Below, in pieces: positions 39,306 through 60,272 of a stretch of 64,000 nucleotides of DNA. The stretch comes from Escherichia phage pEC-M719-6WT.1: the sequence record OQ845957.1. One strand, written 5' to 3'. Each line of letters starts with the position of its first letter. Positions within the stretch are counted from its first letter, which is position 1. The notes beneath the pieces were generated by a model. It was given only the letters and a program-made list of their open reading frames with translations. It ran no database searches and was not told the DNA's origin. A program made the position numbers and the translations under genes.

Positions 39306-40088
39306 ATGGGTATTGTAAAAGTCATCAAAGGTGATATCTTCGCAGACTTTGAGAAAGGTAAGTTTGATATCATCGGTCACGGTTGTAACTGTATGAATCT
39401 GATGGGTGCAGGTATTGCTGACAAGATTTCTAAGGGCTACCCAAAAGCCTATGAAACTGATGCTGAAGTCTACCGTGTAGCAGGAGGAAGAGAGCATAAA
39501 CCTTGTCAGAAACTGCTTGGTAAACTCTCTGTAGCACGTCTTAAACAAGGCCGTATTGCTAACCTGTACACTCAGTTGAAGACTGGTAAAGATGCTCGCT
39601 ATGATGCTCTTGAGAGCGCTCTGTTGAGCCTTAACCAGTACTGCAAAGTGAATAGACTGAAGAAAGTTGGGCTTCCAATGATTGGTGCAGGGATTGGTGG
39701 GCTTGACCCGAAAGCTGTTGTGGTGATTATGAATCACATCCTGAAAGATGTTGATGTTTACCTTTACGTGTTTGAAGAGGCAATGTTTAATACTCTGTCA
39801 ACATGGGGTAATCACAGTGAGCCACAATACTTTGCAGGTGTAGCCGTTGTCAACGAAGATGGAGTTACCCTCTTCAGGCATCGCCAGTACAAGGTACATC
39901 GGAGTAACCCTCCGGTTGAGCGAATGTCTCTAAGTAACGCTCAAGTTACCCCGCCGTTGAAAGGTAGTATGCAACGTGCAGTGACATTTGGAAGTGAACC
40001 TGATGTGTACATTCTTGCAGCAAATGAGAAAGATGCTGAAGCAATTATAGACATTTCTAATATCAAGTTCTTAGCTGCAAAGAACTAA
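39306..40088 (+). CDS. macro-domain protein (ADP-ribose binding/processing)
   Basis: N-terminal VIKGDIFADF...FDIIGHGCNCMNLMGAGIADKI matches macro-domain core; C-terminal extension. Confidence 0.6.
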   Translation: MGIVKVIKGDIFADFEKGKFDIIGHGCNCMNLMGAGIADKISKGYPKAYETDAEVYRVAGGREHKPCQKLLGKLSVARLKQGRIANLYTQLKTGKDARYDALESALLSLNQYCKVNRLKKVGLPMIGAGIGGLDPKAVVVIMNHILKDVDVYLYVFEEAMFNTLSTWGNHSEPQYFAGVAVVNEDGVTLFRHRQYKVHRSNPPVERMSLSNAQVTPPLKGSMQRAVTFGSEPDVYILAANEKDAEAIIDISNIKFLAAKN

Positions 40089-40157
40089 GAAACTCTGTAG
40101 CATATTCACAATAGACTAAGCCTTTCTTATCTGGTGAATTTTCAGGTAAGGAGGGCT

Positions 40158-40338
40158 TTTTCATTTTAAAATTGTGCAGGTAAAAGTCTGGACAGAAATC
40201 TGTAGAGAAAATTTTGAACTCCAAAGGGAAAATTCATTTTCAATTTGTGCAGGTGGACTCCAAAGAGATTTTTCATTTTCAAAACGTGCAGTCCCGGCGA
40301 GTGTCGGGCAAGAAAAATCATTTTAGAATTGTGCAGGT
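40158..40338 (+). repeat. four direct repeats of TCATTTTNNNAANTGTGCAGGT
   Basis: Copies near 40158, 40229, 40268 and 40314 in the intergenic region ahead of the small-gene array. Confidence 0.7.
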
Positions 40339-40516
40339 AGGTGGGTGCAGGTGGGGATGCCACCATTTCTCACAAGGCTACCACATCTGAAAAGAAAAGT
40401 CAACAGAAAAATTTGTAGTGGATTGAAAAATAATTCTTGATTGTAGTTCTGTTTTGTGATAGTTGCATGTGCCCGTCTCATTACAGTTTTTGCAAAAAAT
40501 ATTTTTAAAAATTTGC

Positions 40517-40545
40517 TTGACCTGTAAAACAAAGGCGTTTAGTAT
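40517..40545 (+). promoter_or_regulatory. sigma70-like promoter (TTGACC-N17-TAGTAT)
   Basis: Hexamers with 17-bp spacer, followed by GC hairpin and CCTAAACTGGAGA leader. Confidence 0.5.
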
Positions 40546-40594
40546 TTGCATCAGACGGGCAAGCAAGCCCACTTCCTAAACTGGAGATTCCAAA

Positions 40595-40801
40595 ATGTTA
40601 TATCAACGCCAATTGATGATTGTAGACAATAACAAGACTAAAAAGCGCCGTTTCTTTATGCTTATCTGTGACGTGTGGCAAAGAATATCAGAAAAAGATT
40701 TTGATAAGTATGTTGATACGTCTATCAAGTCAGATTGTTACTTGACAAATCACACAAGACAGTTTACAAGACATACAGCAATTTACTACTATGACGTTTA
40801 A
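40595..40801 (+). CDS. small hypothetical protein (leader-cassette gene 1)
   Basis: 68 aa; ATG 8 nt after conserved CCTAAACTGGAGA. Confidence 0.4.
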   Translation: MLYQRQLMIVDNNKTKKRRFFMLICDVWQRISEKDFDKYVDTSIKSDCYLTNHTRQFTRHTAIYYYDV

Positions 40802-40813
40802 AAGGTCTTGACA

Positions 40814-40975
40814 ATGATTAAAGAAGACTATGTAATAAAATACAAAGGTAGTGACGGATACACAAAAATAGGTCGCGTCTTCTACCTTTACAAGTCAGTT
40901 ACGGGTAATGACTGCATAGCTCTAACAAATGGCGACAAAATAACCATGAAAGATTTTATAAAAATTATTTCATAA
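40814..40975 (+). CDS. small hypothetical protein
   Basis: 53 aa ORF below track cutoff; no own cassette. Confidence 0.2.
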   Translation: MIKEDYVIKYKGSDGYTKIGRVFYLYKSVTGNDCIALTNGDKITMKDFIKIIS

Positions 40976-41059
40976 AGTACTTTACATGGGGTTTAGAGTT
41001 CGATAGTATAAGCCCCAGATAAAGAGCTTTACCAACAATCCTAAACTGGAGAATCTAAA

Positions 41060-41443
41060 ATGAAAAAATACTACATGCCTAAATTCATCAAAAAAGAAAA
41101 CTTTCGTGGTGCTCTGGAAAAATCTATGGGCGAACAATTCAAAGGCAAAATAATTGTTGTACACGCATATAATTTTAAGTATGATGTAAATGGTAACAAG
41201 ATAAACCACTATAAAGCTACACTGTTAGATGGTACACTCTCAGGAGAAAAGGCTGTTATCCATGCACTTGCAGGACGTGGTAAGACGCTAATCCGTTGCG
41301 ATAAACGCCGCTATCAAGGTAGTGCTTACGGTTATGAGGATGCAATCTATCATCTTGATAATATGGGTTACAACGTGGTAAAAGCTGGAGTATCCCAAAT
41401 GATTGGTAGTGATGGTTACGTAACAATCTTTGAAATTAACTAA
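41060..41443 (+). CDS. small hypothetical protein (leader-cassette gene)
   Basis: 127 aa; conserved leader at 40977-41059. Confidence 0.4.
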   Translation: MKKYYMPKFIKKENFRGALEKSMGEQFKGKIIVVHAYNFKYDVNGNKINHYKATLLDGTLSGEKAVIHALAGRGKTLIRCDKRRYQGSAYGYEDAIYHLDNMGYNVVKAGVSQMIGSDGYVTIFEIN

Positions 41444-41531
41444 TAAAGTGCTTTACATGGGGTTTATAAATTGCTAGTATAAGCCCCAGATAAAGAACTT
41501 TATCCAACAACCTAAACTGGAGATTCAAAAA

Positions 41532-41789
41532 ATGGCTACTATCAAAAACATCATTGTTACTGCAAAATCTCGTGATGATGCTCGCGCAACTGCTAAAAAA
41601 TTAAATGGTAAAGTGGTTGACAATGGTAAAAATTCTAATGTAAGATGGGGTGTAAAGACAGACAAAGAATTAACCTTGAAACATAGCTCTAAAAACCTGT
41701 TTAAAGGTGTACAGACTATCGGTAAAACAAATGTATTTACAAAACAAGGTTACAAAATGCACTTGGCATTAACTGACAATTTAATCTAA
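41532..41789 (+). CDS. small hypothetical protein (leader-cassette gene)
   Basis: 85 aa; conserved leader at 41447-41531. Confidence 0.4.
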   Translation: MATIKNIIVTAKSRDDARATAKKLNGKVVDNGKNSNVRWGVKTDKELTLKHSSKNLFKGVQTIGKTNVFTKQGYKMHLALTDNLI

Positions 41790-41879
41790 AAGTACTTTAC
41801 ATGGGGTTTATAAATTGCTAGTATAAGCCCCAGATAAAGAGCTTTACCACTAAACAATCCTAAACTGGAGAATCTAAAA

Positions 41880-42392
41880 ATGAAATTTGTTGAAAGTACC
41901 TTTGAAGTTCAAAAAGAAAAATTCACCATTATCTATGAGGCAATGAATATTTGTGAGCCTTCCCATTGTGTGGATAACTGGCAATTTACTGATGAGCATA
42001 AAGGCGGGGTTACAATCAAAGTTAAGAATGCAGAACGTAACAGCTACAAATATGCAATTCCCACACATTACACGCTTTCACAGCTTGCCAGTGACTACGC
42101 AAAACAGGGAAGGGATAACCCATCATTGGAAGCTTACAAGAGCTTACAGGATGAGCTAGAAAGGGATTTAGAAGCTAATAGCTATATCTTATATGCCTCA
42201 GTAATTGACGCAGAAGGAAACACGGTTTTAAATAGCTTTTCTCTTGCTTATGCCTTTGATTGGTGCTATCTTGACGGTGAAGATTTAGAGGAAAGATTAA
42301 AAGAGGAAGTAAGCAATTCAGACTCTGAAAAGGAAGTTTTAGAGCACTTGGAAGATTTAAAAGACAGTGTGATGAATATCTTTAATATCTAA
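41880..42392 (+). CDS. small hypothetical protein (leader-cassette gene)
   Basis: 170 aa, acidic C-terminus; conserved leader at 41790-41879. Confidence 0.4.
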   Translation: MKFVESTFEVQKEKFTIIYEAMNICEPSHCVDNWQFTDEHKGGVTIKVKNAERNSYKYAIPTHYTLSQLASDYAKQGRDNPSLEAYKSLQDELERDLEANSYILYASVIDAEGNTVLNSFSLAYAFDWCYLDGEDLEERLKEEVSNSDSEKEVLEHLEDLKDSVMNIFNI

Positions 42393-42485
42393 AATAAATT
42401 GCTTTACATGGGGTTATCAGGCTGATAAGATAGCCCCAGATAAAGGAGATTTATCACTAAACAATCCTAAACTGGAGATTCTAAA

Positions 42486-42782
42486 ATGTTTATCGCTGCA
42501 AATGTACGTTCCAAATTGAGCAAGCTTTTACAAGATATCAAATTTGTAGAATCTATGCGCCGCACTCATGGAGTAACGGAGTGGTATCATGGGAAAATAA
42601 ATGGTAAAGAAGTTGTTATTTGTATTTGGAATTTTTGTAAAGAATACAAAAAGCCGTTGCTTCAGGTGGATATCTATGATAATGCAAATAAAAGTTCTGT
42701 TAAGTCTACAAGGGATATGATAGATTCTTTTGAGATTAGCCACACTGGTAGACTATTTCACAAAGGAAAATCATCATGCTAA
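42486..42782 (+). CDS. small hypothetical protein (leader-cassette gene)
   Basis: 98 aa; conserved leader at 42395-42485. Confidence 0.4.
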   Translation: MFIAANVRSKLSKLLQDIKFVESMRRTHGVTEWYHGKINGKEVVICIWNFCKEYKKPLLQVDIYDNANKSSVKSTRDMIDSFEISHTGRLFHKGKSSC

Positions 42783-43099
42783 TTTCTGGAGTTGCCTTAC
42801 TCATTGCTATTTTAGCACTGTATAAATCATGTAAAGCACATCATGCGGCAAGTGATGCAATCACAAGACAAATCAATAATAAACTTGTGACGTCCTTTCT
42901 AGAGCGTTTAAACGTGGAACAATTGAAGCGCTTAGAGATGGGCTTCAGATTCAAGGCTGATACGTATCAGGTGGGCGACATTCTAAGCGGTGATTTTCAA
43001 TTGATTGATGATTATAACGCTTTATTAAATGCTTTAAATATCAGTGACTTGAAAGATTATCATGCTGTTATTGTTCACGAAATAAGCAAACGAAAATAA
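42776..43099 (+). CDS. small membrane-anchored protein
   Basis: 107 aa, N-terminal hydrophobic helix; overlaps upstream stop. Confidence 0.35.
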   Translation: MLISGVALLIAILALYKSCKAHHAASDAITRQINNKLVTSFLERLNVEQLKRLEMGFRFKADTYQVGDILSGDFQLIDDYNALLNALNISDLKDYHAVIVHEISKRK

Positions 43100-43114
43100 A
43101 TTACTAAAAAGGGA

Positions 43115-43143
43115 TTGCAAGACCAAACCAAAATAAGTAAAGT
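43115..43143 (+). promoter_or_regulatory. sigma70-like promoter (TTGCAA-N17-TAAAGT)
   Basis: Conserved -10 block TAAAGTACT shared across cassettes. Confidence 0.45.
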
Positions 43144-43194
43144 ACTTATCAACGGGGCAAGCAAGCCCCAATAACCTAAACTGGAGATTCAAAA

Positions 43195-43596
43195 ATGACT
43201 ACTAATCATGATATCGCTATTCTGAAAGCACGTTTGACCGTTAACCGCATTAATGCTATCACGTCAACCGCACCGGATGAGGTTTTACATAGCATTATCG
43301 GTAAAGTTCAAGGTGTAATTTTAGACGTAGAAAACATCAAAAATTCACTTGCAAACGTTGCAAATGGTGATACACTTGACGGCGCACAATATGAAATGGC
43401 TGATATGTTATCCAAATCAAAAGTGCTGAATAAAGAACTTGACTTGAAAATGTTTAGATTTGCTGTGAAAGTGTGGTTATCTGTTGAGTTCGGTGCAAAT
43501 TTTGCAATTTCTGATTTCTTTGCAACATGGTTGCAACGTAACCTGTCAAAACAAGACTTTGAAGATATCTGCGACACAATTTACGCAGAACTTTAA
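43195..43596 (+). CDS. small hypothetical protein (leader-cassette gene)
   Basis: 133 aa. Confidence 0.4.
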   Translation: MTTNHDIAILKARLTVNRINAITSTAPDEVLHSIIGKVQGVILDVENIKNSLANVANGDTLDGAQYEMADMLSKSKVLNKELDLKMFRFAVKVWLSVEFGANFAISDFFATWLQRNLSKQDFEDICDTIYAEL

Positions 43597-43603
43597 AAAA
43601 CGT

Positions 43604-43632
43604 TTGACACTAATTTTTAAATAGATTAAAGT
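43604..43632 (+). promoter_or_regulatory. sigma70-like promoter (TTGACA-N17-TAAAGT)
   Basis: Consensus -35 with 17-bp spacer. Confidence 0.55.
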
Positions 43633-43684
43633 ACTTATCAACGGGGCAAGCAAGCCCCAACAATCCTAAACTGGAGATTCAAAA

Positions 43685-44242
43685 ATGAAATGCTTTCATG
43701 GAACTACTCAAGAAAACTTTGCAAACCTGCTAAGTGGTGGAGAAAAACCTTCAGGGGCTTGGAATTGCACTGATAGTGATGGATGCTTTTATGTTTATCC
43801 TGAAAGCAAGCTTGACGACGTGGAAAACTTGGACGCAGAACAAATAACTGATGAGGGTATTAGAAACGCTCTGGATAGTGCAAGTATCACAGCGGCTTTC
43901 CAGATGAAATCACAAAAAATAGTTATCTTAGAGCTTGACATTCCAGAGGATGAATTACAAGATGACTGGAGTTGTGAGAACATGAGCGATGTTGCAAGCT
44001 TTACAGAATACTTTGATAAAGCTTGGATTAAAAAGATTTACACAACTGAATTTAATGCTATGTATGCACCGTTTTTTGTACCTAACTTGAACAATAGAAA
44101 TCTTGGCTATGTGCCTGATGAATTACGTAACATTGCTGTAATGGTTCAACGTAGCGATGAGATGAATAATGTCTATTGTGGCATTTTCGAAAATATGCAA
44201 TCTAACATCACAGAAAGCAATATAAACGACTTTACAGCATAA
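43685..44242 (+). CDS. small hypothetical protein (leader-cassette gene)
   Basis: 185 aa. Confidence 0.4.
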   Translation: MKCFHGTTQENFANLLSGGEKPSGAWNCTDSDGCFYVYPESKLDDVENLDAEQITDEGIRNALDSASITAAFQMKSQKIVILELDIPEDELQDDWSCENMSDVASFTEYFDKAWIKKIYTTEFNAMYAPFFVPNLNNRNLGYVPDELRNIAVMVQRSDEMNNVYCGIFENMQSNITESNINDFTA

Positions 44243-44305
44243 ACCATAGAATCATACCAGATAACCATAAAAGCCCCGCATAGGGGCTTACAGGAGCTTT
44301 AAAAG

Positions 44306-44536
44306 ATGCTTACAACAATCTATCTTATCCTTTCCTTGTCTAATGGTGCTGAATGGGACTTCAAAGGGCTTGAAGAGTTCACAGGAAGCAAGGAAAACGC
44401 CATCGCAGCCTGCCAAATAGCAAGACTTGACTACCCCGCCAGTGATGATATACAATGCTACTTCAAAACAGAGGATGAGGATTCTATTTATTTTGATAGT
44501 GTAGATGGTCAATATGAAATTCTTATAGAAAAATAG
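44306..44536 (+). CDS. small hypothetical protein
   Basis: 76 aa; preceded by hairpin and CAGGAG RBS rather than the conserved cassette. Confidence 0.35.
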   Translation: MLTTIYLILSLSNGAEWDFKGLEEFTGSKENAIAACQIARLDYPASDDIQCYFKTEDEDSIYFDSVDGQYEILIEK

Positions 44537-44565
44537 TTGACACTGAAAAACAAAACAAGTAAAGT
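44537..44565 (+). promoter_or_regulatory. sigma70-like promoter (TTGACA-N17-TAAAGT)
   Basis: Consensus -35 with 17-bp spacer. Confidence 0.55.
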
Positions 44566-44618
44566 ACTCATCAACGGGACAAACAAGCCCCTAACAATCC
44601 TAAACTGGAGATTCTAAA

Positions 44619-44960
44619 ATGGCATACGTAACAGTTATTACTGACAAAGAAAATTCCTCTTGGTCTACTCAGGTTAGCGACAAAATGACACCTATGCAGT
44701 GTCTCAAGTACTTTGAACAATGGAACCGTGGAGAAGACGTAAGCCCATTTCAAGTAATGAAAGTTGTACACGTTGATAATGACGGCAACAAAACAACTCT
44801 TAACACTGAATACTATACAACACGCTTTGAAACTAGAGCGGAAACCATGAAACAATTACGTGAAAAGGGTTATAGCCATATAGCGGGGTTAATCTGGAAT
44901 GATTTACTCCAACAACAAAGATTAACCTATGTCAAGCCTGAAAAAATCTTTATAAGCTAA
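44619..44960 (+). CDS. small hypothetical protein (leader-cassette gene)
   Basis: 113 aa. Confidence 0.4.
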   Translation: MAYVTVITDKENSSWSTQVSDKMTPMQCLKYFEQWNRGEDVSPFQVMKVVHVDNDGNKTTLNTEYYTTRFETRAETMKQLREKGYSHIAGLIWNDLLQQQRLTYVKPEKIFIS

Positions 44961-45144
44961 TCAGTAACTTACAAAAATCTTTGAAAAAACTGTTGACATT
45001 ACCCCTTGACAATAGTACATTTGTTCGAGGGGGTTTATCTAAAAGGATTCACTTAAAAGATTCTTTATAGATAAGCCTTGCAATTGCTTAAAAGATTCTG
45101 TATAGTTCTCTCAGTTGGTTAACTTCCTAAACTGGAGACATAAA

Positions 45145-45264
45145 ATGATTATCCTGTATATGATGGTACTCTCAGTAGTGACACCTTTCCTGCTTTTAGT
45201 AGCTAGTGAAATAGATGATAAAATCTTTGATAAAAAGCTTGCAAAGGTAAATCAAAACAAGTAA
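45145..45264 (+). CDS. tiny hydrophobic protein (leader-cassette gene)
   Basis: 39 aa, below ORF-track cutoff; ATG 7 nt after CCTAAACTGGAGA; single predicted TM helix. Confidence 0.3.
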   Translation: MIILYMMVLSVVTPFLLLVASEIDDKIFDKKLAKVNQNK

Positions 45265-45267
45265 AGT
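45239..45267 (+). promoter_or_regulatory. sigma70-like promoter (TTGCAA-N17-TAAAGT)
   Basis: Hexamers with 17-bp spacer. Confidence 0.45.
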
Positions 45268-45330
45268 ACTCATCAACGGGAGGGAATAAAACCTCCCAAT
45301 CTGATAAAATCCTAAACTGGAGAATCTAAA

Positions 45331-45858
45331 ATGAACAAGTCCACAGCAATCAACACTATCCGCTCGAAAGATGTAATGAAAAAACCTGTGAAAGACACTT
45401 TCGAATTTACTCTTAAAGATAAGTTGTTTGCAGTCATCACAAGAGGGGAAGATAAGAAATATTACATACATCGCCCAAATCAACAAATGTTAACAGCTAA
45501 CAACTTTATGAAAGCTGTTGCAATGATTCTACCGGACTATCTGGCTATTGTTGCAGAGATTCACGAAATGGCTATCAAATCAACTAAAAACGAGCTAAAC
45601 CGTTACAAAATGGCTTACGAGCGCTCTATCAAGTCTCATAATCTTTTTATTGCAATTCATCATACAGGGATGTATGCTATGGGAACGGGTAACCAACAAT
45701 ACCCGCTCTATGATGTAGAAAATCTCTTTACGGGGGATTATCCAACAACTAGATTCAAAGTAACGTTAGGGGAAGCATTGACTAGAGGCATCCGACTTTA
45801 CGAACAATCTCTAAAAAACTTAGAAAATTCACTTGACGAAACGCTAGCGAGTCTTTAA
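45331..45858 (+). CDS. small hypothetical protein (leader-cassette gene)
   Basis: 175 aa. Confidence 0.4.
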   Translation: MNKSTAINTIRSKDVMKKPVKDTFEFTLKDKLFAVITRGEDKKYYIHRPNQQMLTANNFMKAVAMILPDYLAIVAEIHEMAIKSTKNELNRYKMAYERSIKSHNLFIAIHHTGMYAMGTGNQQYPLYDVENLFTGDYPTTRFKVTLGEALTRGIRLYEQSLKNLENSLDETLASL

Positions 45859-45861
45859 AGT
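45833..45861 (+). promoter_or_regulatory. sigma70-like promoter (TTGACG-N17-TAAAGT)
   Basis: Hexamers with 17-bp spacer, overlapping 3' end of upstream gene. Confidence 0.45.
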
Positions 45862-45918
45862 ATCTATCAAGGGGAGGGAATGACCTTCCCCAACAATCCT
45901 AAACTGGAGACTTGAAAA

Positions 45919-46182
45919 ATGGAACACGTAGAACTGATTGAACTGTTAAAGATTGCCACCGTATCAGAAGATGTTTCTTTATTCCACCGTGTAGAATCCG
46001 ATATGTTTACAGGTGACTTTATCAAAGAGTCTTACGAAGTAGTCGGGTTTAAAGATAATCAAGTATTTGGGTTTTATGACTTGACAAAATCACAAGCAAT
46101 TGTTAAATATGACGTTTTATCTTGTGAGATTATCACAAAATATAATGAGAAAAGACTTGCAACCTATGCAGAGATGAATTAA
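45919..46182 (+). CDS. small hypothetical protein (leader-cassette gene)
   Basis: 87 aa. Confidence 0.4.
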   Translation: MEHVELIELLKIATVSEDVSLFHRVESDMFTGDFIKESYEVVGFKDNQVFGFYDLTKSQAIVKYDVLSCEIITKYNEKRLATYAEMN

Positions 46183-46246
46183 TATTATTTTCAACGGGGA
46201 GGGTAAAACCTCCCAATCTAAAAATCCTAAACTGGAGACTTCAAAG

Positions 46247-46498
46247 ATGGCAACTATCCGCGCAACTGTAAACACTTTTGGTTTTAACGTGTTAGATGTT
46301 AAGTTCGACATGGTAGGCACTGGTGATGCTTTTGGAATGGTTGAAATGTGCCTAAAGGCAACTATTCAGGACTATAAACCAACTGAAAACTTCTGGAAGG
46401 GAGTAAAACAGGAAGTCTTAAAAGATGGCGTGACGTCTTACTATTGGGGTGATTCTCTTATCACGCTTTACCATCAAAAATTTGGTTATAATGACTAA
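46247..46498 (+). CDS. small hypothetical protein (leader-cassette gene)
   Basis: 83 aa; last gene of array. Confidence 0.4.
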   Translation: MATIRATVNTFGFNVLDVKFDMVGTGDAFGMVEMCLKATIQDYKPTENFWKGVKQEVLKDGVTSYYWGDSLITLYHQKFGYND

Positions 46499-46540
46499 CA
46501 AGACGCCGCAACGGGGCAAATAGCCCCAGACCCTATACAA

Positions 46541-46561
46541 GCCCCTTCAATGGGGCTTTTT
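46541..46561 (+). terminator. intrinsic terminator closing the small-gene array
   Basis: GCCCC-TTCAAT-GGGGC hairpin plus TTTTT. Confidence 0.6.
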
Positions 46562-48089
46562 AACGTCTATCTAAACCCTTCCTAGAATCTTACCAGACAT
46601 TTAGAGCAATAACTCTATAGCTTACTCTATAATCCCTTATCAAATCAACTAAAATATAAGCCCATAACCCCAGAAAGGGGATGGCATTCTAATTGGTATT
46701 GTTACCAATCCCTTAAACGCTCTATAACGCTCTATAACGGCTTATCATCTCAACTTAAGCAATCATATTAACCCGCTCTTAAAAGCCCTTTATAGAGCTT
46801 CCTAGAGCCTTAAAAGAATCTTATAAGGGTGTAAGCTTTATCATCTCGTTAGTCTCTTGTGAATATCTAAACGGGGCTATGAGATAGGACTCTATAGTGG
46901 TTATAAAGTATCGTAAAAGCTAGCCCCCTTAACATTTCTTTAACAAAATCTTAACAATCCCTACATAGTTATGCTTATTAGCAACTTGTTAGCACCTTGT
47001 TAAATCCTTGTTAAGACCATGTTACAACCTTGTTAGACTCTTTGGAGTACCCTTAAAAGCCCCTGTAAAGGGCTATAAAGAGCTATACAGTCAGTTGGGC
47101 TATAGTTACTATGGAGAACCTTAGAAATAGCTGTATAGAGCTATACAGGGCTTTTAAGAGGTATGTTTAGAGAATCACTGAGAGGGATAGGGAGCGATAA
47201 GAGAAGAGATAGTGACCATGTTAATAGACTGTTAAAAAGGTTAAGAACTTATTAGCCACTTGTTAATTATCTTAACAAAATAACTTTTAAATTTAACATG
47301 TTAGCATCTTGTTAGACCCTTGTAAGAACTGTTAAGCTCTTGTTACATCCTTGTTAGTTCTGTTAAGAGACTGTTAAGAACTATCGAGACTTGTTAGAGA
47401 CTTGTTAGAGACTTGTTAGAGTTGTAAAGAAATTGTTAATGATATTTTAAAATTTTGCAAAGGGTATGTTACAAGGCTGTTAAGGGCTACCAAGCAGATA
47501 TACACCCTTTGTAGATATTTTTCAGATTCTCTACAAACCCTAAATAAACACTTGACAACTCTATTTTATAAAAATTTTATAGAACTGAATAACTATCTAT
47601 ACACTATCTTCTATAAAACAGGTAAATACAGGCTTATAAGATACCTTGTTAATACCGTGTTAGACCTTGTAGAATAAGCCTTAGAAGGGAATACCTGTTT
47701 AGTGCTATATAACAGTCTATATAGAGGGTTAGTAGAACCTAGTGAACATCCTATAGAGAGTCACATAGCTTACATAATGGGTTACTGTTAAGTAACACAG
47801 ATAACCTAGAGATTAAGATGGGTATAGGGGCTTCTAAGGGGCTATGAAGAGATGGTTAAGGTGATTGTATAGGTTTGGAAGAGGATTGCTTAGAGGGCTA
47901 TTTAGAAGGGTTATACAGAGAGCTATAGAGACTCACTGTTAAGGGACTAAGATACTATATAGTACTATATAACTATATAGAGAGTAAGGTTAAGTAGGTT
48001 GTTTAGAAGGGCTAGATATTTTATCACATATCATGGTGACCCAAGATGAACGAAGTGAATCCAAATTTTATAAAAATATTTTACTCAAT
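46562..48089. repeat. ORF-free repeat island with phased YTGTTAR motifs, GCTATACAG-type palindromes and a tandem CGCTCTATAA duplication
   Basis: No ORF of 60 aa or more on either strand; tandem 11-bp units at 46985-47040; 12-13 phased units at 47296-47432; bounded by convergent terminators. Confidence 0.75.
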
Positions 48090-48124
48090 AAAAAAGCCCC
48101 TATGAGACAGACTCTATTAGGGGC
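48090..48124 (-). terminator. intrinsic terminator for minus-strand block
   Basis: Hairpin GCCCC..GGGGC with T-run on minus strand (A-run on plus). Confidence 0.5.
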
Positions 48125-48133
48125 TGTATAGTT

Positions 48134-48817
48134 TTACATCACTTCTCGTAACATTACCTGTAGAGAAGTTTTAGTCGTCTGGAAGAAGTGTGTGAATCCA
48201 TTGTGACGTTCTCTTACCTGAAGCATTATCTGGTCACCCTTAATTGGATGTGAACTAATGTGATACTCATTCAGGTTCAAGACTGCACTTCCACCTTCAA
48301 AGATGTGGCTCAGGTACGTAGCATCAATAAACTCTTCTTTATCTGTGACCTTGATACAGATACCTCTGTTAACTCGTTTAGGATTGATATCTTCCATCAC
48401 AAGCATTTGTTGTCCACCAAGAGAAATCATAGTGAACTCTTTACGGTTCTGCTGTTTAACGTACATTTCAAGTTTCTGCAAAGTATCTTTATAGAACGGA
48501 TAAGACTCCTTAACAAAGATACCTTTAAGTTGCTCTTTACCATCTACAAACTCTCTTGAATGTCTCAGTGACATTACAATCTGTTGAAGCTGGTCTCTGC
48601 ATTCCGGTGAAAGATAGTTATCAATATCTTCCAAACTCAGTATCAAGTACTTTCTCTCTAGCTCAAATTGTTTTTCCATATCTATCAAATCCTGAAAACA
48701 TTTCTTAGTGACTTTTGACCACTCTTCAGAAGCAATCTTTTTCTTCCTCTGAAGGGGAATCATATCTTTCAAGTTCATCCAACTCTTCTTGAGAAGGTGA
48801 GCCATAGCTTTCTTCAA
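48134..48817 (-). CDS. hypothetical protein
   Basis: 227 aa ORF. Confidence 0.35.
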   Translation of the reverse strand: MKKAMAHLLKKSWMNLKDMIPLQRKKKIASEEWSKVTKKCFQDLIDMEKQFELERKYLILSLEDIDNYLSPECRDQLQQIVMSLRHSREFVDGKEQLKGIFVKESYPFYKDTLQKLEMYVKQQNRKEFTMISLGGQQMLVMEDINPKRVNRGICIKVTDKEEFIDATYLSHIFEGGSAVLNLNEYHISSHPIKGDQIMLQVRERHNGFTHFFQTTKTSLQVMLREVM

Positions 48818-57894: not shown

Positions 57895-57971
57895 CTCTGT
57901 TTAGCTCAGTTTGGTAGAGCGTTCCGTTTGGGGCGGTAAGGCCAGAGGTTCAAGTCCTCTAACAGAGACCA
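57895..57971 (+). tRNA. tRNA-Pro (anticodon TGG, tentative)
   Basis: 7-bp acceptor CTCTGTT/AACAGAG, T-arm AGAGG-TTCAAGT-CCTCT, encoded CCA. Confidence 0.55.
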
Positions 57972-57978
57972 AATTAAT

Positions 57979-58053
57979 GTCGTAGAAGGCAAATGGTTAG
58001 CCACCTGACCTTCAATCAGTTGCTCGCGGGTTCGAATCCCGTCTACGACTCCA
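57979..58053 (+). tRNA. tRNA-Glu (anticodon TTC, tentative)
   Basis: Acceptor GTCGTAG/CTACGAC, T-loop TTCGAAT, CCA end. Confidence 0.5.
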
Positions 58054-58138
58054 AATTTGACAGAAGACCAAATACAGCAAACAACTTTTACTTTTCGCGC
58101 ATAGAAAACATAAAAAGCTTGGTCTGGTCATTAAGAAT

Positions 58139-58215
58139 TGCGGGTATAGAGAAAGGGCGTCTCACATGTCTCATTAGCATGGTATCGGCAGGTTCGACTC
58201 CTGCACCCGCCTCCA
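58139..58215 (+). tRNA. tRNA with CAT anticodon (Met/Ile2/initiator unresolved); 1:72 mismatch
   Basis: Anticodon arm CATGT-CTCATTA-GCATG, T-arm GCAGG-TTCGACT-CCTGC. Confidence 0.5.
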
Positions 58216-58296
58216 AATTTACAGAAGACCGTTTACAGCAATTCAAACAATTTTATCGGAAAATTAAAATGAATACGGTCTGGTAATGTTAAACAT

Positions 58297-58373
58297 GGTT
58301 AGGAAGCACATAAGGCATGTGCGGTCGGCTGTTAACCGAATGGCACAGGGTTCGAATCCCTGACTAACCGCCA
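58297..58373 (+). tRNA. tRNA-Asn (anticodon GTT)
   Basis: Anticodon loop CTGTTAA, T-arm CAGGG-TTCGAAT-CCCTG, CCA end. Confidence 0.6.
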
Positions 58374-58383
58374 AAATTTAAAT

Positions 58384-58471
58384 GCGTCGTTATCCCGTAG
58401 ATGGAAGCGGTGGTGACTGTAAATCACTTGTCATTACGACTCGGTAGGTTCGACTCCTTCACGGCGCACCA
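58384..58471 (+). tRNA. tRNA-Tyr (anticodon GTA), class II
   Basis: 88 nt with long variable arm; anticodon loop CTGTAAA. Confidence 0.6.
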
Positions 58472-58477
58472 AACAAA

Positions 58478-58555
58478 GGTTATGTAGTTTAATTTGGTTA
58501 AAATACCTCCCTGTCACGGAGGAAGATGTGGGTTCAAGTCCCATCATAACCGCCA
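58478..58555 (+). tRNA. tRNA-Asp (anticodon GTC)
   Basis: Acceptor GGTTATG/CATAACC; anticodon arm CCTCC-CTGTCAC-GGAGG. Confidence 0.65.
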
Positions 58556-58975
58556 ATTTTGAGAGGGCTTTTTAGCCCCTCCCTTAAAGAGTTCTTACGA
58601 GTATTCTTTAAAGGAGCAGAAGACCAAATTCAGCAAGTTACTTAAAATTTCAAGCCAATTTAATTTTGAAAAATTTAAAACTTGGTCTGGTTCCAACAAA
58701 TTTACAGAAGACCGTTTACAGCAATTTAAATCTATTTCTCTCAAAAAGAAAAGGTGAAGGTTCGATTCCTTCACACGTTACGGCGTGTTGGTGTAATGGA
58801 AGCACTTTAGATAATAACGGTCTGGTAATCCTCTTTGCAGTGACTTATGGAGCTAATATATCGTCCCATGAGTGCCGATGAATTTCCTTAGCATGATTCT
58901 AGATTAGCTTAATAGGAAATGACTCTACAAGCCCTTTAGCAAGGTTTGCGTAGGTTACTGCAAAGATGATTTAAT

Positions 58976-59051
58976 GGGAGTGTAGCAGAATGGTGATGCG
59001 GCAGACTTTTAATCTGACAGGCGACGGGTTCGAATCCCTCCACTCCTACCA
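58976..59051 (+). tRNA. tRNA-Lys (anticodon TTT)
   Basis: Anticodon loop CTTTTAA; T-loop TTCGAAT; weak T-stem. Confidence 0.5.
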
Positions 59052-59055
59052 ATAT

Positions 59056-59132
59056 GGTTCAGTCGCAGATAAGGTAATGCAAGGGTTTCATAAGCCCTAT
59101 GAATGTGGGTTCGATTCCCACCTGAACCTCCA
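59056..59132 (+). tRNA. tRNA with CAT anticodon (Met or Ile2)
   Basis: Perfect acceptor GGTTCAG/CTGAACC; anticodon arm AGGGT-TTCATAA-GCCCT; T-arm GTGGG-TTCGATT-CCCAC. Confidence 0.65.
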
Positions 59133-59134
59133 AT

Positions 59135-59209
59135 TGTGGGTTAGCATAAATGGTAATGCAAACGGCTGATAACCGTTAGAAGAGGGTTCGATACCCTCAC
59201 CTACAACCA
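59135..59209 (+). tRNA. tRNA-Ile (anticodon GAT)
   Basis: Anticodon arm AACGG-CTGATAA-CCGTT; T-arm GAGGG-TTCGATA-CCCTC. Confidence 0.65.
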
Positions 59210-59224
59210 ATTTCAATAAAGTTG

Positions 59225-59253
59225 TTGACATTGAGATGTGACTACTTTATAGT
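59225..59253 (+). promoter_or_regulatory. sigma70 consensus-like promoter (TTGACA-N17-TATAGT) inside tRNA cluster
   Basis: Near-consensus hexamers with exact 17-bp spacer. Confidence 0.6.
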
Positions 59254-59486
59254 TACCTTAGTTTTCGTTAGCGTAGCGTCTATTTTGCAAACTTAAAAAT
59301 AAATGCAAACGATAATGTTTTTCTGGCAGTAGCTTAATAGGCTAAACACCAGTGAGGTCTTCCAATCCCTCATCAAAGAATTTGGCGTACTAGCCCACGG
59401 TATGATTAATAAAGTGGGCAACATTCTAAAGGGTATCCCTTATGGGGCTTGGCTTAAATGCAATGAGTACCCTTTAAAATGTTAAT
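59254..59486 (+). ncRNA. candidate structured ncRNA downstream of internal promoter
   Basis: ~230 nt with no ORF and no canonical tRNA fold; nested stems GCCCAC..GTGGGC and AAGGGTA..TACCCTT. Confidence 0.3.
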
Positions 59487-59563
59487 GCACCCTTAGTTCA
59501 ACTGGACAGAGCAAATGACTTCTAATCATTGAGTTACAGGTTCGAATCCTGTAGGGTGTTCCA
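59487..59563 (+). tRNA. tRNA-Arg (anticodon TCT)
   Basis: Anticodon arm AATGA-CTTCTAA-TCATT; T-arm ACAGG-TTCGAAT-CCTGT. Confidence 0.65.
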
Positions 59564-59623
59564 ATTTAATGGTCAAGACAACACTAGTAAGTCATCTTCG
59601 ATACATGTTAAGAGATGAACGAA

Positions 59624-59691
59624 AGTCGGAAAGTTGCTGAAGGTTAGCTACCTTCGATAGTAAGTAGGTTCGACTCCTACCTTGGCTGCCA
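59624..59691 (+). tRNA. aberrant tRNA-like element (~68 nt; D-arm not resolvable)
   Basis: Good T-arm GTAGG-TTCGACT-CCTAC and CCA end, stem GAAGG-TTAGCTA-CCTTC, but no standard D-arm or full acceptor pairing. Confidence 0.3.
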
Positions 59692-59833
59692 AATAGTTAG
59701 CAGATTGCTTAGACGACCTTAACGGGTCTCCGTGTAAGGAGGTGGTCTGTATCTCATGTTTCCAGAGCATGTAAAATATTCTGAGAAGGGGCTTTACAGT
59801 GTTGTGATAATACGGTAAGCTTCGAATTATAGT

Positions 59834-59916
59834 ATGGGACGATGTTAAGACACTAAGGCATGTGCGTAAGCCTCCAAAACTTACTCAAAGGGGTTCGAAT
59901 CCTCCGTCCCATGCCA
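59834..59916 (+). tRNA. atypical tRNA-like element (possible anticodon CCA/Trp; ~8-nt insertion between acceptor and D-stem)
   Basis: Perfect acceptor ATGGGAC/GTCCCAT, T-loop TTCGAAT, CCA end; body 83 nt without a class II variable arm. Confidence 0.35.
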
Positions 59917-59929
59917 AAGTCTTATTAGG

Positions 59930-60017
59930 GGTAGGTAGCGGCTAATGGAAGCCAAACTGTCTTGAAAACAGTTGCCACTGTAGAGATACGGTGAGGGTTC
60001 GACTCCTTTACTTACCG
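59930..60017 (+). tRNA. tRNA-Ser (anticodon TGA), class II
   Basis: Anticodon arm ACTGT-CTTGAAA-ACAGT; long variable arm; CCA not encoded. Confidence 0.6.
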
Positions 60018-60019
60018 CC

Positions 60020-60272
60020 TAATAAGATTTGAAATCCACGCTACTGTTATTACGTGCGTTCGGTTTCCTCTAACGTGTATTGGCGTACACGGCACTGATG
60101 GAGCACCTAGTAGGTGTCACGGAGAAGAGATAGTATCAAGCTCTCCAAAGGTTCTAGTCACCGGATTAAACAAGACTATGCAAAGACTGATTAGGTCTTT
60201 TTAGAGAACTTCTGAGGCAAACTATACCATTGTTGCTTTGGGGTCTTGGAAGTTCTCTACAAAGATTTTAAT
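60020..60272 (+). ncRNA. candidate structured ncRNA / spacer within tRNA cluster
   Basis: ~250 nt without ORF or tRNA fold between two tRNAs; multiple local stems. Confidence 0.25.

What the first reader, a model, noticed from the sequence alone, without database searches (positions are those of the whole stretch)
40517..46561. Array of about 15 small genes, 12 with a conserved promoter/hairpin/SD leader cassette
Twelve ORFs of 39-185 aa are each preceded by the invariant string CCTAAACTGGAGA 7-18 nt before the ATG (motif starts near 40575, 41041, 41511, 41859, 42466, 43175, 43665, 44589, 45126, 45311, 45898, 46226). Upstream of it sits a GC-rich hairpin whose sequence varies while pairing is kept (GGGGC-loop-GCCCC, GGGAGG-loop-CCTCCC), indicating selection on RNA structure. 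Further upstream is a conserved -10 block TAAAGTACT, often with TTGACA/TTGCAA 17 bp upstream. Two sub-families exist (ACTTTACATGGGG at 40977-42420 versus ACTYATCAACGGG at 43137-46200). The proteins show no recognisable domains; this layout is typical of host-takeover or anti-defence gene sets and has the look of a modular, recombination-prone cassette system.
Basis: seen in the sequence. Interest (0 to 1): 0.7.

Follow-up and report, generated by a model that had tools for sequence, protein, structure and literature searches.

The report
Standardised leader cassettes before phage genes
A Felix-O1-type phage places the same ready-made leader (host-type promoter, RNA hairpin, invariant ribosome-binding block) in front of almost every small early gene, and relatives have gained, lost or swapped genes at these leaders; the repeat is real, was noted once in passing in 2015, and most resembles the PeSL cassettes of T4-like phages.

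Summary
CCTAAACTGGAGA occurs 12 times exactly, all on the + strand between 40575 and 46238, each 6-8 nt before an ATG, and nowhere else in the 64 kb. The window is an Ounavirinae (Mooglevirus-like) phage.

Pooling 257 unique copies from relatives shows two leader types:
- **Type P:** a sigma-70 promoter (TTGACA/TTGCAA, 17 nt, TAAAGT), then a GC hairpin starting exactly 10 nt after the -10. The hairpin would sit at the 5' end of the transcript.
Its upstream TAAAGT has no -35. A TTTACA-17-TAnnnT promoter lies inside the hairpin, with the TA invariant in the loop across four genera.

The 13-mer is itself a small hairpin, (U)CC-UAAACU-GG(A), that half-buries the Shine-Dalgarno sequence. Variant forms keep the pairing.

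Gene gain and loss, and switches in closest relative, map to the leaders. One window leader is a demonstrable recombinant.

Best reading: PeSL-like autonomous expression cassettes that also serve as recombination linkers. No transcript data exist. The function of the invariant block is unknown. The gene products have no recognisable function. The repeat was noted once (phage Mordin, 2015) as "SAS-like".

The parts
40118..40167 (+). Intrinsic terminator closing the upstream transcription unit (after the macro-domain gene at 39306-40088)
   Evidence: 17-pair stem followed by a T run. Same sequence as Felix O1 terminator t13.
40517..40594 (+). Leader 1, type P. -35 TTGACC 40517-40522; -10 TAGTAT 40540-40545; hairpin GGGC-AAGCAA-GCCC 40557-40570; SAS 40575-40587; ATG 40595.
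   Evidence: It is the first leader after the terminator, and the first leader is type P in all 9 loci compared.
40973..41059 (+). Leader 2, type S. Three-tier hairpin 40973-41031; nested -35 TTTACA 40981-40986 and -10 TAGTAT 41004-41009; SAS 41040-41052; ATG 41060.
   Evidence: (MFE -24.5 kcal/mol, z -3.8).
41443..41531 (+). Leader 3, type S. Hairpin 41443-41503; nested TTTACA 41452-41457 and TGc-TAGTAT 41475-41480; SAS 41511-41523; ATG 41532.
   Evidence: TG before the -10; z -4.8.
41789..41879 (+). Leader 4, type S. Hairpin 41789-41845; nested TTTACA 41796-41801 and TAGTAT 41819-41824; SAS 41859-41871; ATG 41880.
   Evidence: (z -4.0).
42394..42485 (+). Leader 5, type S. Hairpin 42394-42454 with inner stem GGGGUUAUC/GAUAGCCCC; nested TTTACA 42403-42408 and TGa-TAAGAT 42426-42431; SAS 42466-42478; ATG 42486.
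   Evidence: (z -3.7).
43115..43194 (+). Leader 6, type P, and a recombinant. -35 TTGCAA 43115-43120; -10 TAAAGT 43138-43143; hairpin GGGGC-AAGCAA-GCCCC 43154-43169; SAS 43175-43187; ATG 43195.
   Evidence: One search shows the 5' part matches the EcSzw-2 leader before gene family 20, and the 3' part is identical to the KMM4 type S leader before this gene.
43604..43684 (+). Leader 7, type P. -35 TTGACA 43604-43609; -10 TAAAGT 43627-43632; hairpin 43643-43658; SAS 43665-43677; ATG 43685.
44537..44618 (+). Leader 8, type P. -35 TTGACA 44537-44542; -10 TAAAGT 44560-44565; weak hairpin GGGAC..GCCCC 44576-44591; SAS 44599-44611; ATG 44619.
   Evidence: (z only -0.9).
45078..45144 (+). Leader 9. Promoter TTGCAA 45078-45083 and TATAGT 45101-45106; no hairpin; SAS 45126-45138; ATG 45145.
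45239..45330 (+). Leader 10, type P. -35 TTGCAA 45239-45244 lies inside the 3' end of the 39-aa ORF. -10 TAAAGT 45262-45267 contains that ORF's stop codon. Hairpin GGGAGG-GAAUAAAA-CCUCCC 45278-45297; SAS 45311-45323; ATG 45331.
   Evidence: (z -3.2).
45833..45918 (+). Leader 11, type P. -35 TTGACG 45833-45838; -10 TAAAGT 45856-45861; hairpin GGGGAGGG-AAUGA-CCUUCCCC 45871-45891; SAS 45898-45910; ATG 45919.
46157..46246 (+). Leader 12, type P. -35 TTGCAA 46157-46162; -10 TAATAT 46180-46185; hairpin GGGAGG-GUAAAA-CCUCCC 46197-46214; SAS 46226-46238; ATG 46247.
   Evidence: (z -3.0).
40595..46498 (+). The 15 passenger ORFs (39-185 aa). Twelve are led by the SAS. Three are not: 40814-40975; 42776-43099, whose start overlaps the stop of the preceding gene; and 44306-44536, which has its own hairpin and GGAG.
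   Evidence: Pfam gives no family above cut-off and PHROGs gives only 'unknown function' families for the 10 ORFs scanned.
46513..46563 (+). End of the array. An orphan leader-type hairpin GGGGC-AAAUA-GCCCC (46513-27) without a SAS, then an intrinsic terminator AAGCCCC-UUCAAU-GGGGCUU plus T run (46539-46563).
   Evidence: A terminator is annotated at the same place in phage Moogle.

Best explanation
The region is the hyperplastic early-gene array of a Felix-O1-type myophage (Ounavirinae, closest to Mooglevirus). Almost every small ORF carries its own portable expression cassette, which fills the whole space from the stop codon of the previous gene to the ATG.

The cassette has three layers:
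1. **A host sigma-70 promoter** (inferred from consensus and fixed register).
2. **A GC-clamped hairpin formed in sense-strand RNA** (pairing shown, function inferred).
   - In type P leaders the hairpin starts 10 nt after the -10. That is 2-4 nt from the predicted 5' end, where a stem-loop is known to protect E. coli mRNAs from 5'-end-dependent decay.
   - In type S leaders a 20-bp three-tier hairpin is wrapped around the promoter itself: the -35 sits at its 5' foot, the -10 in its loop and 3' arm, and the predicted start just after it. This hairpin exists only in read-through transcripts from upstream. It most likely acts there as an intercistronic stabiliser, insulator or processing site.
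3. **An invariant translation-initiation block.** CCUAAACUGGAGA folds into a weak hairpin, (U)CC-UAAACU-GG(A), that pairs half of the Shine-Dalgarno sequence. It gives every passenger ORF the same ribosome-binding context and possibly a common handle for regulation (inferred).

Because the same 60-90 nt recur between unrelated ORFs, and supply both a stop codon at their 5' edge and a start at their 3' edge, they also act as homology patches. Recombination between leaders deletes, inserts or exchanges whole ORFs without breaking expression (shown by comparison with relatives). This works like the PeSL cassettes of T4-type phages.
For: **Identity of the phage.**

**Motif statistics and spacing.**

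**Distribution.** The motif occurs in multiple copies only in ~86-93 kb Ounavirinae contigs, clustered in one few-kb stretch per genome.

**Type P promoter.** In 95 of 96 pooled copies that carry the ATCAACGGG anchor (of 130 non-S copies), a box matching TTGACA at 4-6 of 6 positions lies 17 nt upstream of TAAAGT/TAAATT. The hairpin begins directly after ATCAAC in 31 of 32 distinct versions.

**Type S promoter.**
- The upstream TAAAGT has -35 matches no better than random.
- TTTACA-17-TAnnnT lies inside the hairpin in 109 of 127 copies.
- Many copies have G at -14, or TGn.
- The T and A of that -10 are invariant although unpaired.
- The independent promoter scan lists these sites.
- The same layout holds in Erwinia phage SunLIRen, a different genus.

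**RNA pairing.**
- MFE z-scores are -3.7 to -4.8 for type S.
- 98.4% of cells are paired, against 33-59% when the partners are slid.
- Three pairs show compensatory changes, including GGGG:CCCC to GGUG:CACC between genera.
- The covariation score is 0.163 against 0.071 in shuffles, reached by 0 of 500 shuffles.
- Frequent U.G pairs fit only the sense strand.
- Type P stems fall into two incompatible solutions, GGGGC/GCCCC and GGGAGG/CCUCCC. Cross-family chimeras lose about 5 kcal/mol.

**SAS mini-hairpin.** The forms CC-N6-GG and CCU-N6-AGG occur with no single-insertion intermediates: 73 copies of the second form and none of either intermediate. The Kolesnikvirus form is CCUU-AYA-AAGG.

**Recombination.**
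- Differences in gene order are whole-ORF indels flanked by leaders.
- The nearest relative of the window switches gene by gene: EcSzw-2 for genes 1-2 and 8-9, Moogle for 3-4, 12 and 17, and KMM4/ESh22 for 5-7, 10-11 and 14-15.
- Leader 6 is a chimera of two parental leaders.

**Timing.** Several Felix O1 ORFs of this array peak 5 min after infection by RT-PCR.

**Precedent.** PeSL papers.
Against: - No transcript 5' ends, half-lives or reporter data exist for any of these phages in the searchable literature. Every promoter and every RNA function is inferred from sequence.
- Over the whole region, promoter-like hits are only mildly enriched: 31 against 22 +/- 4.7 in shuffles. The argument rests on register and conservation.
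- Most hairpin pairs never vary. The compensatory events are few and partly inherited, so formal covariation is modest. Within the Moogle/Felix set alone only 1 of 16 pairs covaries.
- One leader (45126) has no hairpin and one (44599) has a weak one, so the hairpin is not indispensable.
- The SAS mini-hairpin is marginal (-1.1 to -3.6 kcal/mol). Its loop is not conserved in Kolesnikvirus.
- The recombination role is inferred from end products. Recombination anywhere in short intergenic DNA would also give whole-gene indels.
Confidence: 0.62

Rival explanations
1. Type S elements are not promoters. They are RNase III (or other endonuclease) processing sites in one long early transcript from the promoter at 40517, as between the early genes of phage T7. 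Cleavage would leave a protective hairpin on the 3' end of each upstream message.
For: - The three-tier hairpin has 20 bp interrupted by a 1-nt and a 2-3-nt symmetric internal loop. That is the size and shape of T7 early RNase III sites (the T7 comparison is from my own knowledge).
- Type S leaders always abut the stop codon of the previous gene.
- Type S is never the first leader after a terminator in the 9 loci compared.
- U.G pairs show that the structure is read in sense RNA.
- The upstream TAAAGT has no -35.
Against: - The unpaired T and A of the nested -10 and the -35 TTTACA at exactly 17 nt are invariant across four genera, while neighbouring loop positions vary. An RNase III site would not require this.
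- The two roles are not exclusive.
- No cleavage data exist.
Confidence: 0.3
2. The hairpins are transcription terminators or attenuators that isolate each cassette, as shown for PeSL stem-loops in RB49/phi1. Each gene would then be read only from its own promoter.
For: - In T4-type PeSLs a GGGG...CCCC stem-loop terminated transcription in a lacZ fusion.
- Annotators of phage ASO1A called several of these hairpins rho-independent terminators with WebGeSTer.
Against: - None of the leader hairpins is followed by a T run. The terminator scan finds none at a leader. The two hairpins that close the flanking units (40118 and 46539) do have T runs.
- In type P leaders the hairpin lies downstream of its own promoter, at about +3 to +22. 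It would be transcribed by every initiating polymerase.
Confidence: 0.12
3. The invariant 13-mer is the operator of a phage-encoded RNA-binding protein, a translational repressor or endonuclease in the manner of T4 RegA or RegB. This protein would switch the whole accessory array off together. The promoter and hairpin parts would be secondary.
For: - The conservation is far beyond what an SD needs: 13 of 13 nt in all 12 copies, and the same across Mooglevirus, Suspvirus and Felixounavirus.
- There is no extra complementarity to E. coli 16S rRNA. The longest Watson-Crick run is 5-6 nt, below the shuffled mean.
- The block forms an SD-containing mini-hairpin whose stem is kept through a paired double insertion and in a third form in Kolesnikvirus.
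- Genus-specific variants suggest co-evolution with a partner.
Against: - No candidate protein was identified.
- The loop sequence varies in Kolesnikvirus (UAAAC, ACA, AUA), and the SD core changes from GGAG to AGGA. That argues against a GGAG-specific nuclease.
- The hairpin is very weak on its own.
- Identity among copies could partly reflect gene conversion between leaders.
Confidence: 0.22
4. The repeats are selfish or neutral intergenic DNA (a MITE-like repeat, or a product of repeated duplication) with no regulatory role of their own.
For: - Copies are nearly identical within a genome and spread among unrelated genes.
- One relative shows a tandem leader with a 7-codon remnant ORF between the copies.
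Against: - Orientation is always with the genes.
- The distance to the ATG is fixed at 6-8 nt, and the SD is embedded.
- Promoter boxes are in register.
- Pairing is maintained across genera with compensatory changes.
- The elements are retained over the sequence divergence that separates four genera.
Confidence: 0.04

Closest known systems
PeSL (promoter-early stem-loop) cassettes of T4-type phages RB49/phi1, PST/T4 and nt-1/KVP40 (Arbiol et al. 2010, PMC2839356; Comeau et al. 2014, PMC4122927)
   Same: - Short composite intergenic elements made of a sigma-70-type early promoter plus a GGGG...CCCC stem-loop, ending in the SD and start codon of a small ORF of unknown function.
- Clustered in a hyperplastic region.
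- Found at the borders of indels and replacements between close relatives.
- The promoter variant TTTACW-N17-TAYWAT reported for PST/T4 matches the nested type S promoter here.
   Different: - A different phage subfamily, with no sequence homology tested or expected.
- Here the stem-loop lies downstream of the promoter (type P) or around it (type S), not upstream.
- It lacks a T run, so a terminator role is doubtful.
- Here there is in addition an invariant 13-nt start-associated block.
- Mini-circle formation and promoter/terminator activity were shown experimentally for PeSLs and are untested here.
[quoted passage not shown] 2011, PMC3203893)
   Same: - A 13-nt asymmetric sequence containing an SD-like core, 3-8 nt before the start codon of 11-19 genes per genome, in one orientation.
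- Conserved beyond what 16S pairing explains.
- About half of the copies are preceded by an inverted repeat with a variable spacer.
- Function still unknown in 2025 (PMC12699233).
- The Mordin genome announcement made this comparison for the present repeat.
   Different: - Unrelated sequence (GGGATAGGAGCCC) and host phylum.
- In cluster K the authors found little support for an mRNA hairpin in the inverted repeats. Here pairing is supported by compensatory changes and sense-strand U.G pairs.
- Here the leaders also contain recognisable promoters.
RNase III processing sites between the early genes of phage T7 (own knowledge: Dunn and Studier)
   Same: Conserved irregular hairpins of about 20 bp with internal loops. 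They sit between consecutive small early genes downstream of strong host-type promoters at a genome end, directly before the next gene's ribosome-binding site.
   Different: Cleavage is untested here. T7 sites contain no promoter, whereas type S elements carry a conserved -35/-10 pair inside the hairpin.
5'-terminal stem-loop mRNA stabilisers (ompA 5' UTR; own knowledge: Emory, Bouvet and Belasco 1992)
   Same: A stable hairpin within 2-4 nt of the predicted 5' end, followed by a single-stranded ribosome-binding region. This is the geometry of type P leaders.
   Different: The 5' ends are only predicted. No half-life data exist. The type P hairpins are repeated before many genes rather than belonging to one message.
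T4 RegA translational repressor and RegB endoribonuclease regulons (own knowledge)
   Same: Many early messages share a recognition element at the ribosome-binding site. This allows joint shut-off after the early phase.
   Different: No RegA or RegB homologue was sought successfully or found. The GGAG core is not conserved in Kolesnikvirus. This is a functional analogy only.

Membership tests
PeSL cassettes (T4-type phages) | A sigma-70-like early promoter (-35, 17 nt, -10) inside the repeated intergenic element | tested here: met
   By consensus and register only. Type P has a 4-6 of 6 match at 17 nt in 95 of 96 copies. Type S has TTTACA-17-TAnnnT in 109 of 127 copies. The independent scan lists both. 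Activity was not measured.
PeSL cassettes (T4-type phages) | An adjacent stable stem-loop, typically GGGG...CCCC | tested here: met
   11 of the 12 window leaders have one. Its position relative to the promoter differs from the published PeSLs (downstream of or around the promoter, not upstream).
PeSL cassettes (T4-type phages) | The stem-loop acts as a transcription terminator or attenuator | tested here: inconclusive
   No T run follows any leader hairpin, and the terminator scan finds none there. Function cannot be measured with these tools.
PeSL cassettes (T4-type phages) | Clustered in a hyperplastic region of small ORFs of unknown function | tested here: met
   15 ORFs, none with a Pfam family above cut-off, PHROGs 'unknown function'. 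Gene content varies among 9 loci.
PeSL cassettes (T4-type phages) | Indels and replacements between relatives have their junctions in the elements | tested here: met
   (chimeric leader 6; whole-ORF indels bounded by leaders; gene-by-gene switches of nearest relative).
PeSL cassettes (T4-type phages) | Recombination between neighbouring elements releases mini-circles | not testable with these tools
   Needs inverse PCR on infected cells or virion DNA, as in PMC2839356.
Start-associated sequences (cluster K mycobacteriophages) | A roughly 13-nt asymmetric repeat a few nt upstream of many start codons, in one orientation, with an SD-like core | tested here: met
   12 copies, all on the + strand, 6-8 nt before the ATG, with a GGAG core.
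Start-associated sequences (cluster K mycobacteriophages) | Conservation not explained by pairing with 16S rRNA | tested here: met
   The longest Watson-Crick match of the SAS to E. coli rrsH outside the SD is 5-6 nt, below the shuffled mean.
Start-associated sequences (cluster K mycobacteriophages) | Sequence relatedness to GGGATAGGAGCCC, or occurrence in cluster K phages | tested here: not met
   Different sequence and a different phage group. This is an analogue, not a member.
T7-type early RNase III sites | An irregular hairpin of about 20 bp with an internal loop, between early cistrons | tested here: met
   Type S has 5-6 + 5 + 9-11 bp with 1-nt and 2-3-nt internal loops.
T7-type early RNase III sites | Cleavage by host RNase III | not testable with these tools
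   Needs an in vitro cleavage assay or an rnc mutant.
Rfam families | A match to any curated RNA family | tested here: not met
   Only one chance-level hit in 39900-48200 (E = 0.92, 21 bits against a gathering score of 90).

The most novel reading that the evidence does not exclude
The invariant block is not just a good ribosome-binding site. It would be the operator of a dedicated post-transcriptional regulon. A still unidentified Ounavirinae protein (or RNA) would recognise the SD-containing mini-hairpin, (U)CC-UAAACU-GG(A), and switch the translation or stability of the whole accessory-gene array on or off together. The operator would co-evolve with this partner across genera: CC-N6-GG, CCU-N6-AGG and CCUU-N3-AAGG. 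Any ORF captured between two leaders would then automatically join the regulon.
Probability: 0.2. Interest if true: 0.7.

Novelty: new variant of a known kind. Interest (0 to 1): 0.45.

Why it matters
**What it would show.** If the reading is right, Felix-O1-type phages, which are widely used for Salmonella and E. coli typing and biocontrol, carry a plug-and-play system for accessory genes. Each captured ORF receives a promoter, an RNA-stability or insulation element, a uniform ribosome-binding site and even a stop codon for its upstream neighbour. The same elements let relatives trade genes one at a time across genus borders. That extends the PeSL idea beyond T4-type phages.

**Link to an open question.** It gives a Gram-negative, genetically tractable counterpart to the still unexplained start-associated sequences of mycobacteriophages. 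It also points to a specific, testable RNA feature: the SD-sequestering mini-hairpin.

**Practical uses.** The leaders mark where foreign genes could be inserted into these phages with predictable expression. The array they define is a set of early ORFs of unknown function that could be screened for host-takeover or anti-defence activity.

Tried and rejected
1. **Rfam.** A search of 39900-48200 at a permissive E-value gave nothing but one chance-level miRNA hit.
2. **Extended pairing of the leader with 16S rRNA (an epsilon-like enhancer).** The SAS and its flanks show no complementarity to E. coli rrsH beyond the SD, and less than shuffled sequences. Rejected.
3. **The TAAAGT block as the -10 of type S leaders.** Its -35 matches follow the random distribution. 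Rejected in favour of the nested TTTACA-17-TAnnnT.
4. **Intrinsic terminators at the leaders.** There are no T runs and the scan finds none. Considered unlikely.
5. **A GGAG-specific, RegB-like nuclease target.** Weakened because the Kolesnikvirus leaders use AGGA rather than GGAG.
6. **Protein function.** Pfam gave nothing above cut-off and PHROGs gave only unknown-function families. The remaining five small ORFs were not scanned.
7. **Literature.** Searches for transcript maps, TSS data or any description of these leaders in Felix-O1-like phages found only the one-sentence note in the Mordin announcement.
8. **Overall promoter enrichment.** It is weak (31 against 22 +/- 4.7), so I did not use it as evidence.
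9. **Searching for a candidate SAS-binding protein.** Not attempted.

Full report
**1. The observation**

CCTAAACTGGAGA occurs 12 times exactly in the window. All copies are on the + strand, at 40575, 41040, 41511, 41859, 42466, 43175, 43665, 44599, 45126, 45311, 45898 and 46226. With up to two mismatches there are 13 hits against 1.56 expected from shuffles, and the only hit outside the array is a poor minus-strand match.

Each copy ends 6-8 nt before an ATG that opens an ORF of 39-185 aa. The array has 15 ORFs. Three lack the motif:
- 40814-40975;
- 42776-43099, whose start overlaps the stop of the preceding gene;
- 44306-44536, which has its own hairpin and GGAG.

**2. What the window is**

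The region matches 261 phage records, all Felix-O1-like myophages (Ounavirinae). The best matches are Citrobacter phage BSwM KMM4, Escherichia phage EcSzw-2, Shigella phage ESh22 and Citrobacter phage Moogle, at 82-86% identity over half to three quarters of the query.

The array lies between the macro-domain gene with its terminator (Felix O1 t13) and a 1.6-kb non-coding repeat region. In Felix O1 the homologous ORFs are 15-23. Several of them peaked 5 min after infection in the published RT-PCR survey.

**3. Prior knowledge**

The Felix O1 genome paper lists a few host-type promoters and terminators. It says that how transcription is organised is not known, and it does not mention these leaders.

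The only mention I found is one sentence in the 2015 announcement of Citrobacter phage Mordin. It reports a 26-bp repeat, CCAACAATCCTAAACTGGAGAATCTA, upstream of 8 gene starts, 'reminiscent of start-associated sequences' of cluster K mycobacteriophages, with role unknown. No transcript map or TSS data turned up.

**4. Two leader types**

I pooled copies from the window, eight GenBank relatives and IMG/VR contigs. The motif is multi-copy only in ~86-93 kb Ounavirinae contigs and is confined to one short stretch in each. This gave 257 unique leaders.

*Type P (130 copies).* The layout is TTGACA/TTGCAA/TTGACG, 17 nt, TAAAGT/TAAATT/TAGTAT, then ACTYATCAAC, a short GC hairpin, a short linker, and the 13-mer.
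- In 95 of the 96 copies that carry the ATCAAC anchor, the -35 box matches at 4-6 of 6 positions at exactly 17 nt.
- The hairpin starts directly after ATCAAC, 10 nt after the -10, in 31 of 32 distinct versions.
- With a start 7-8 nt after the -10, the transcript would begin 2-4 nt before the stem. This geometry is known to protect E. coli messages from 5'-end-dependent decay (own knowledge: Emory, Bouvet and Belasco 1992).
- The stems come in two mutually incompatible solutions, GGGGC/GCCCC and GGGAGG(G)/(C)CCUCCC, with varied loops. Chimeras between them lose about 5 kcal/mol.

Its -35 matches are indistinguishable from random.
- The best promoter is inside the hairpin: -35 TTTACA in 109 of 127 copies, spacer 17, and a -10 of the form TAnnnT, commonly preceded by G at -14 or a full TGn.
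- The T and A of this -10 are invariant in 55 of 55 aligned sequences, although they lie in the loop, where neighbouring positions vary freely.
- The independent consensus scan lists these four sites in the window, three with TG.
- TTTACW-N17-TAYWAT is also the promoter form reported for PeSLs of T4/PST.

**5. RNA structure**

Type S elements fold into a three-tier hairpin. It has an outer helix UAAAGU/GCUUUA, a middle helix CUUUA/UAAAG and an inner GC-clamped helix of 9-11 bp, about 20 bp in all. MFE values are -24 to -26 kcal/mol with z-scores of -3.7 to -4.8.

Within the Moogle/Felix set nearly all pairs are invariant, and only one shows compensatory change. Adding the Erwinia phage SunLIRen (Kolesnikvirus) helps. 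The same architecture is kept, and the inner clamp has changed from GGGG:CCCC to GGUG:CACC.

On a 16-sequence, four-genus alignment:
- 98.4% of cells pair, against 33-59% when the partners are slid;
- three pairs have compensatory changes;
- the covariation score is 0.163 against 0.071 in shuffles, reached by 0 of 500 shuffles.

Frequent U.G pairs fit the sense strand only, so the structure is read in + strand RNA. For type S this means read-through transcripts from upstream, because the nested promoter starts after the hairpin.

The hairpin is the size and shape of the RNase III sites between T7 early genes (own knowledge), but cleavage cannot be tested here. No leader hairpin is followed by a T run, whereas the hairpins that close the flanking units are. 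A terminator role, shown for PeSL stem-loops, therefore seems unlikely here.

**6. The 13-mer itself**

RNA folding repeatedly pairs (U)CC with GG(A) around a UAAACU loop, which buries half of the GGAG.

Across all loci there are two main forms, CC-UAAACU-GG and CCU-UAAACU-AGG. The second differs by two insertions that together add a U-A pair. It occurs 73 times, and neither single-insertion intermediate occurs at all. The base before CC is T in most form-1 copies, which allows a U-A closing pair.

SunLIRen has a third form, AACCCUUAnAnAGGAAUC, folding as CCUU-AYA-AAGG or CCU-UAAAC-AGG.

The CC...GG pairing is therefore kept at spacings of 6, 7 and 8 nt. That fits an RNA stem better than a DNA half-site pair. 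The stem is weak, at -1.1 to -3.6 kcal/mol. The block has no extra complementarity to 16S rRNA. What reads it is unknown. One option is a uniform, mildly self-masked ribosome-binding site. The more interesting alternative is a handle for a phage-encoded regulator.

**7. Recombination**

Clustering the ORFs of nine loci shows a common order with whole-ORF presence/absence differences. A given gene can carry a type P leader in one phage and a type S leader in another.

The usual pattern is A-P-X-S-B in one phage against A-P-B in another. This is what recombination between two leaders would produce.

Leader 6 of the window is a direct example. Its 5' part, up to the hairpin, matches the EcSzw-2 leader that precedes gene family 20. 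Its last roughly 35 nt are identical to the KMM4 type S leader that precedes the 43195 gene. Gene family 20 is absent from the window.

The nearest relative of the window also switches gene by gene:

| Window genes | Nearest relative | Identity |
|---|---|---|
| 39104 and 39306 | EcSzw-2 | 92-95% |
| 40595 and 40814 | Moogle | 94-96% |
| 41060-42392 | KMM4/ESh22 | 86-88% |
| 42486 and 42776 | EcSzw-2 (others 71-76%) | 91-92% |
| 43195 and 43685 | KMM4/ESh22 | 89-91% |
| 46247 | Moogle | 95% |

Leaders supply a stop codon at their 5' edge (the TAA of TAAAGT) and the start context at their 3' edge. Exchanges within them therefore leave intact, expressed ORFs.

**8. Conclusion and limits**

The best-supported picture is a PeSL-like system of autonomous expression cassettes in a different phage subfamily, with two new twists:
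- the hairpin sits after or around the promoter rather than before it;
- an invariant, SD-sequestering start-associated block is added.

Promoter activity, transcript ends, RNA processing, the role of the 13-mer and the functions of the 15 proteins are all inferred or unknown. Pfam and PHROGs give no function. The suggestion of host takeover or anti-defence is reasonable for an early, hypervariable array, but it is untested.

Noticed in passing
window 40137-40360: Between the upstream terminator and the first leader promoter there are four direct repeats of about 38-45 nt. Each ends in (T)TCATTTTnAAwTTGTGCAGGT, and there are extra GTGCAGGTGG copies at 40331-40354. Some relatives annotate a small reverse-strand ORF here. 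Function unknown.
   Followed up: partly
window 46560-48130: A 1.6-kb non-coding stretch after the array is packed with short repeats at 10-11-bp phasing (CTTGTTAG/CTGTTAAG, GCTATAnAG, GAGACTTGTTA x3.3). The record of phage ekra starts inside the homologous region and annotates repeat_regions there. In EcSzw-2 a similar block sits inside the gene array, next to a truncated type S leader. It looks like an origin, packaging or terminal region.
   Followed up: partly
window 46513-46527: An orphan leader-type hairpin, CAAC-GGGGC-AAAUA-GCCCC-AGA, with no 13-mer and no gene behind it. It lies between the last stop codon and the true terminator, and looks like a remnant of a lost cassette.
   Followed up: no
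window 44243-44305: The motif-less gene at 44306 is preceded by a different hairpin, AAGCCCC-GCAUA-GGGGCUU. On the minus strand it is followed by a T run and scores as a terminator. There is no obvious minus-strand gene for it to terminate.
   Followed up: no
window 44961-45100: An unusually long intergenic region, conserved in Moogle and ESh22. It has two overlapping TTGACA boxes and a C-first/G-last inverted repeat (ACCCCTTGACAA...TTGTTCGAGGGGGT) upstream of the hairpin-less leader 9. The homologous site in phage ASO1A is annotated as promoter plus terminator.
   Followed up: no
window 45145-45264: The 39-aa ORF reads through a promoter module. Its last 9 codons (KLAKVNQNK) are encoded by the -35 and spacer of leader 10. 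The same DNA is intergenic in phage KMM4. Leaders can therefore become coding sequence.
   Followed up: partly
an IMG/VR Ounavirinae locus (sequence listed; locus id not recorded): Two leaders in tandem. A 13-mer and ATG are followed by a 7-codon ORF (ATGTTTGGTTTTAAAAGCAAGTAA) that runs straight into a second type P leader. This looks like a recombination scar or the stump of a deleted gene.
   Followed up: no
L129 (Erwinia phage SunLIRen) 8161-8531: Two leaders with TTGACA-18-TAAAAT in which the -10 lies in the loop of the hairpin GAGGGG-UUAAAAU-CCCCUC. A promoter nested in a hairpin therefore recurs in a second, unrelated-looking leader family of a distant genus.
   Followed up: partly
window 57895-63554: A cluster of 24 tRNA genes on the + strand, including two tRNA-Met, as expected for a Felix-O1-type genome.
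   Followed up: no
window 39306-40088: The gene just upstream of the array encodes a 260-aa protein annotated in relatives as macro-domain protein or phosphatase. Its N-terminal 150 aa have homologues next to the valyl-tRNA-synthetase modifier gene of T4-type phages. Its nearest relative (EcSzw-2/EP1, 95-98%) differs from that of the first array genes.
   Followed up: no
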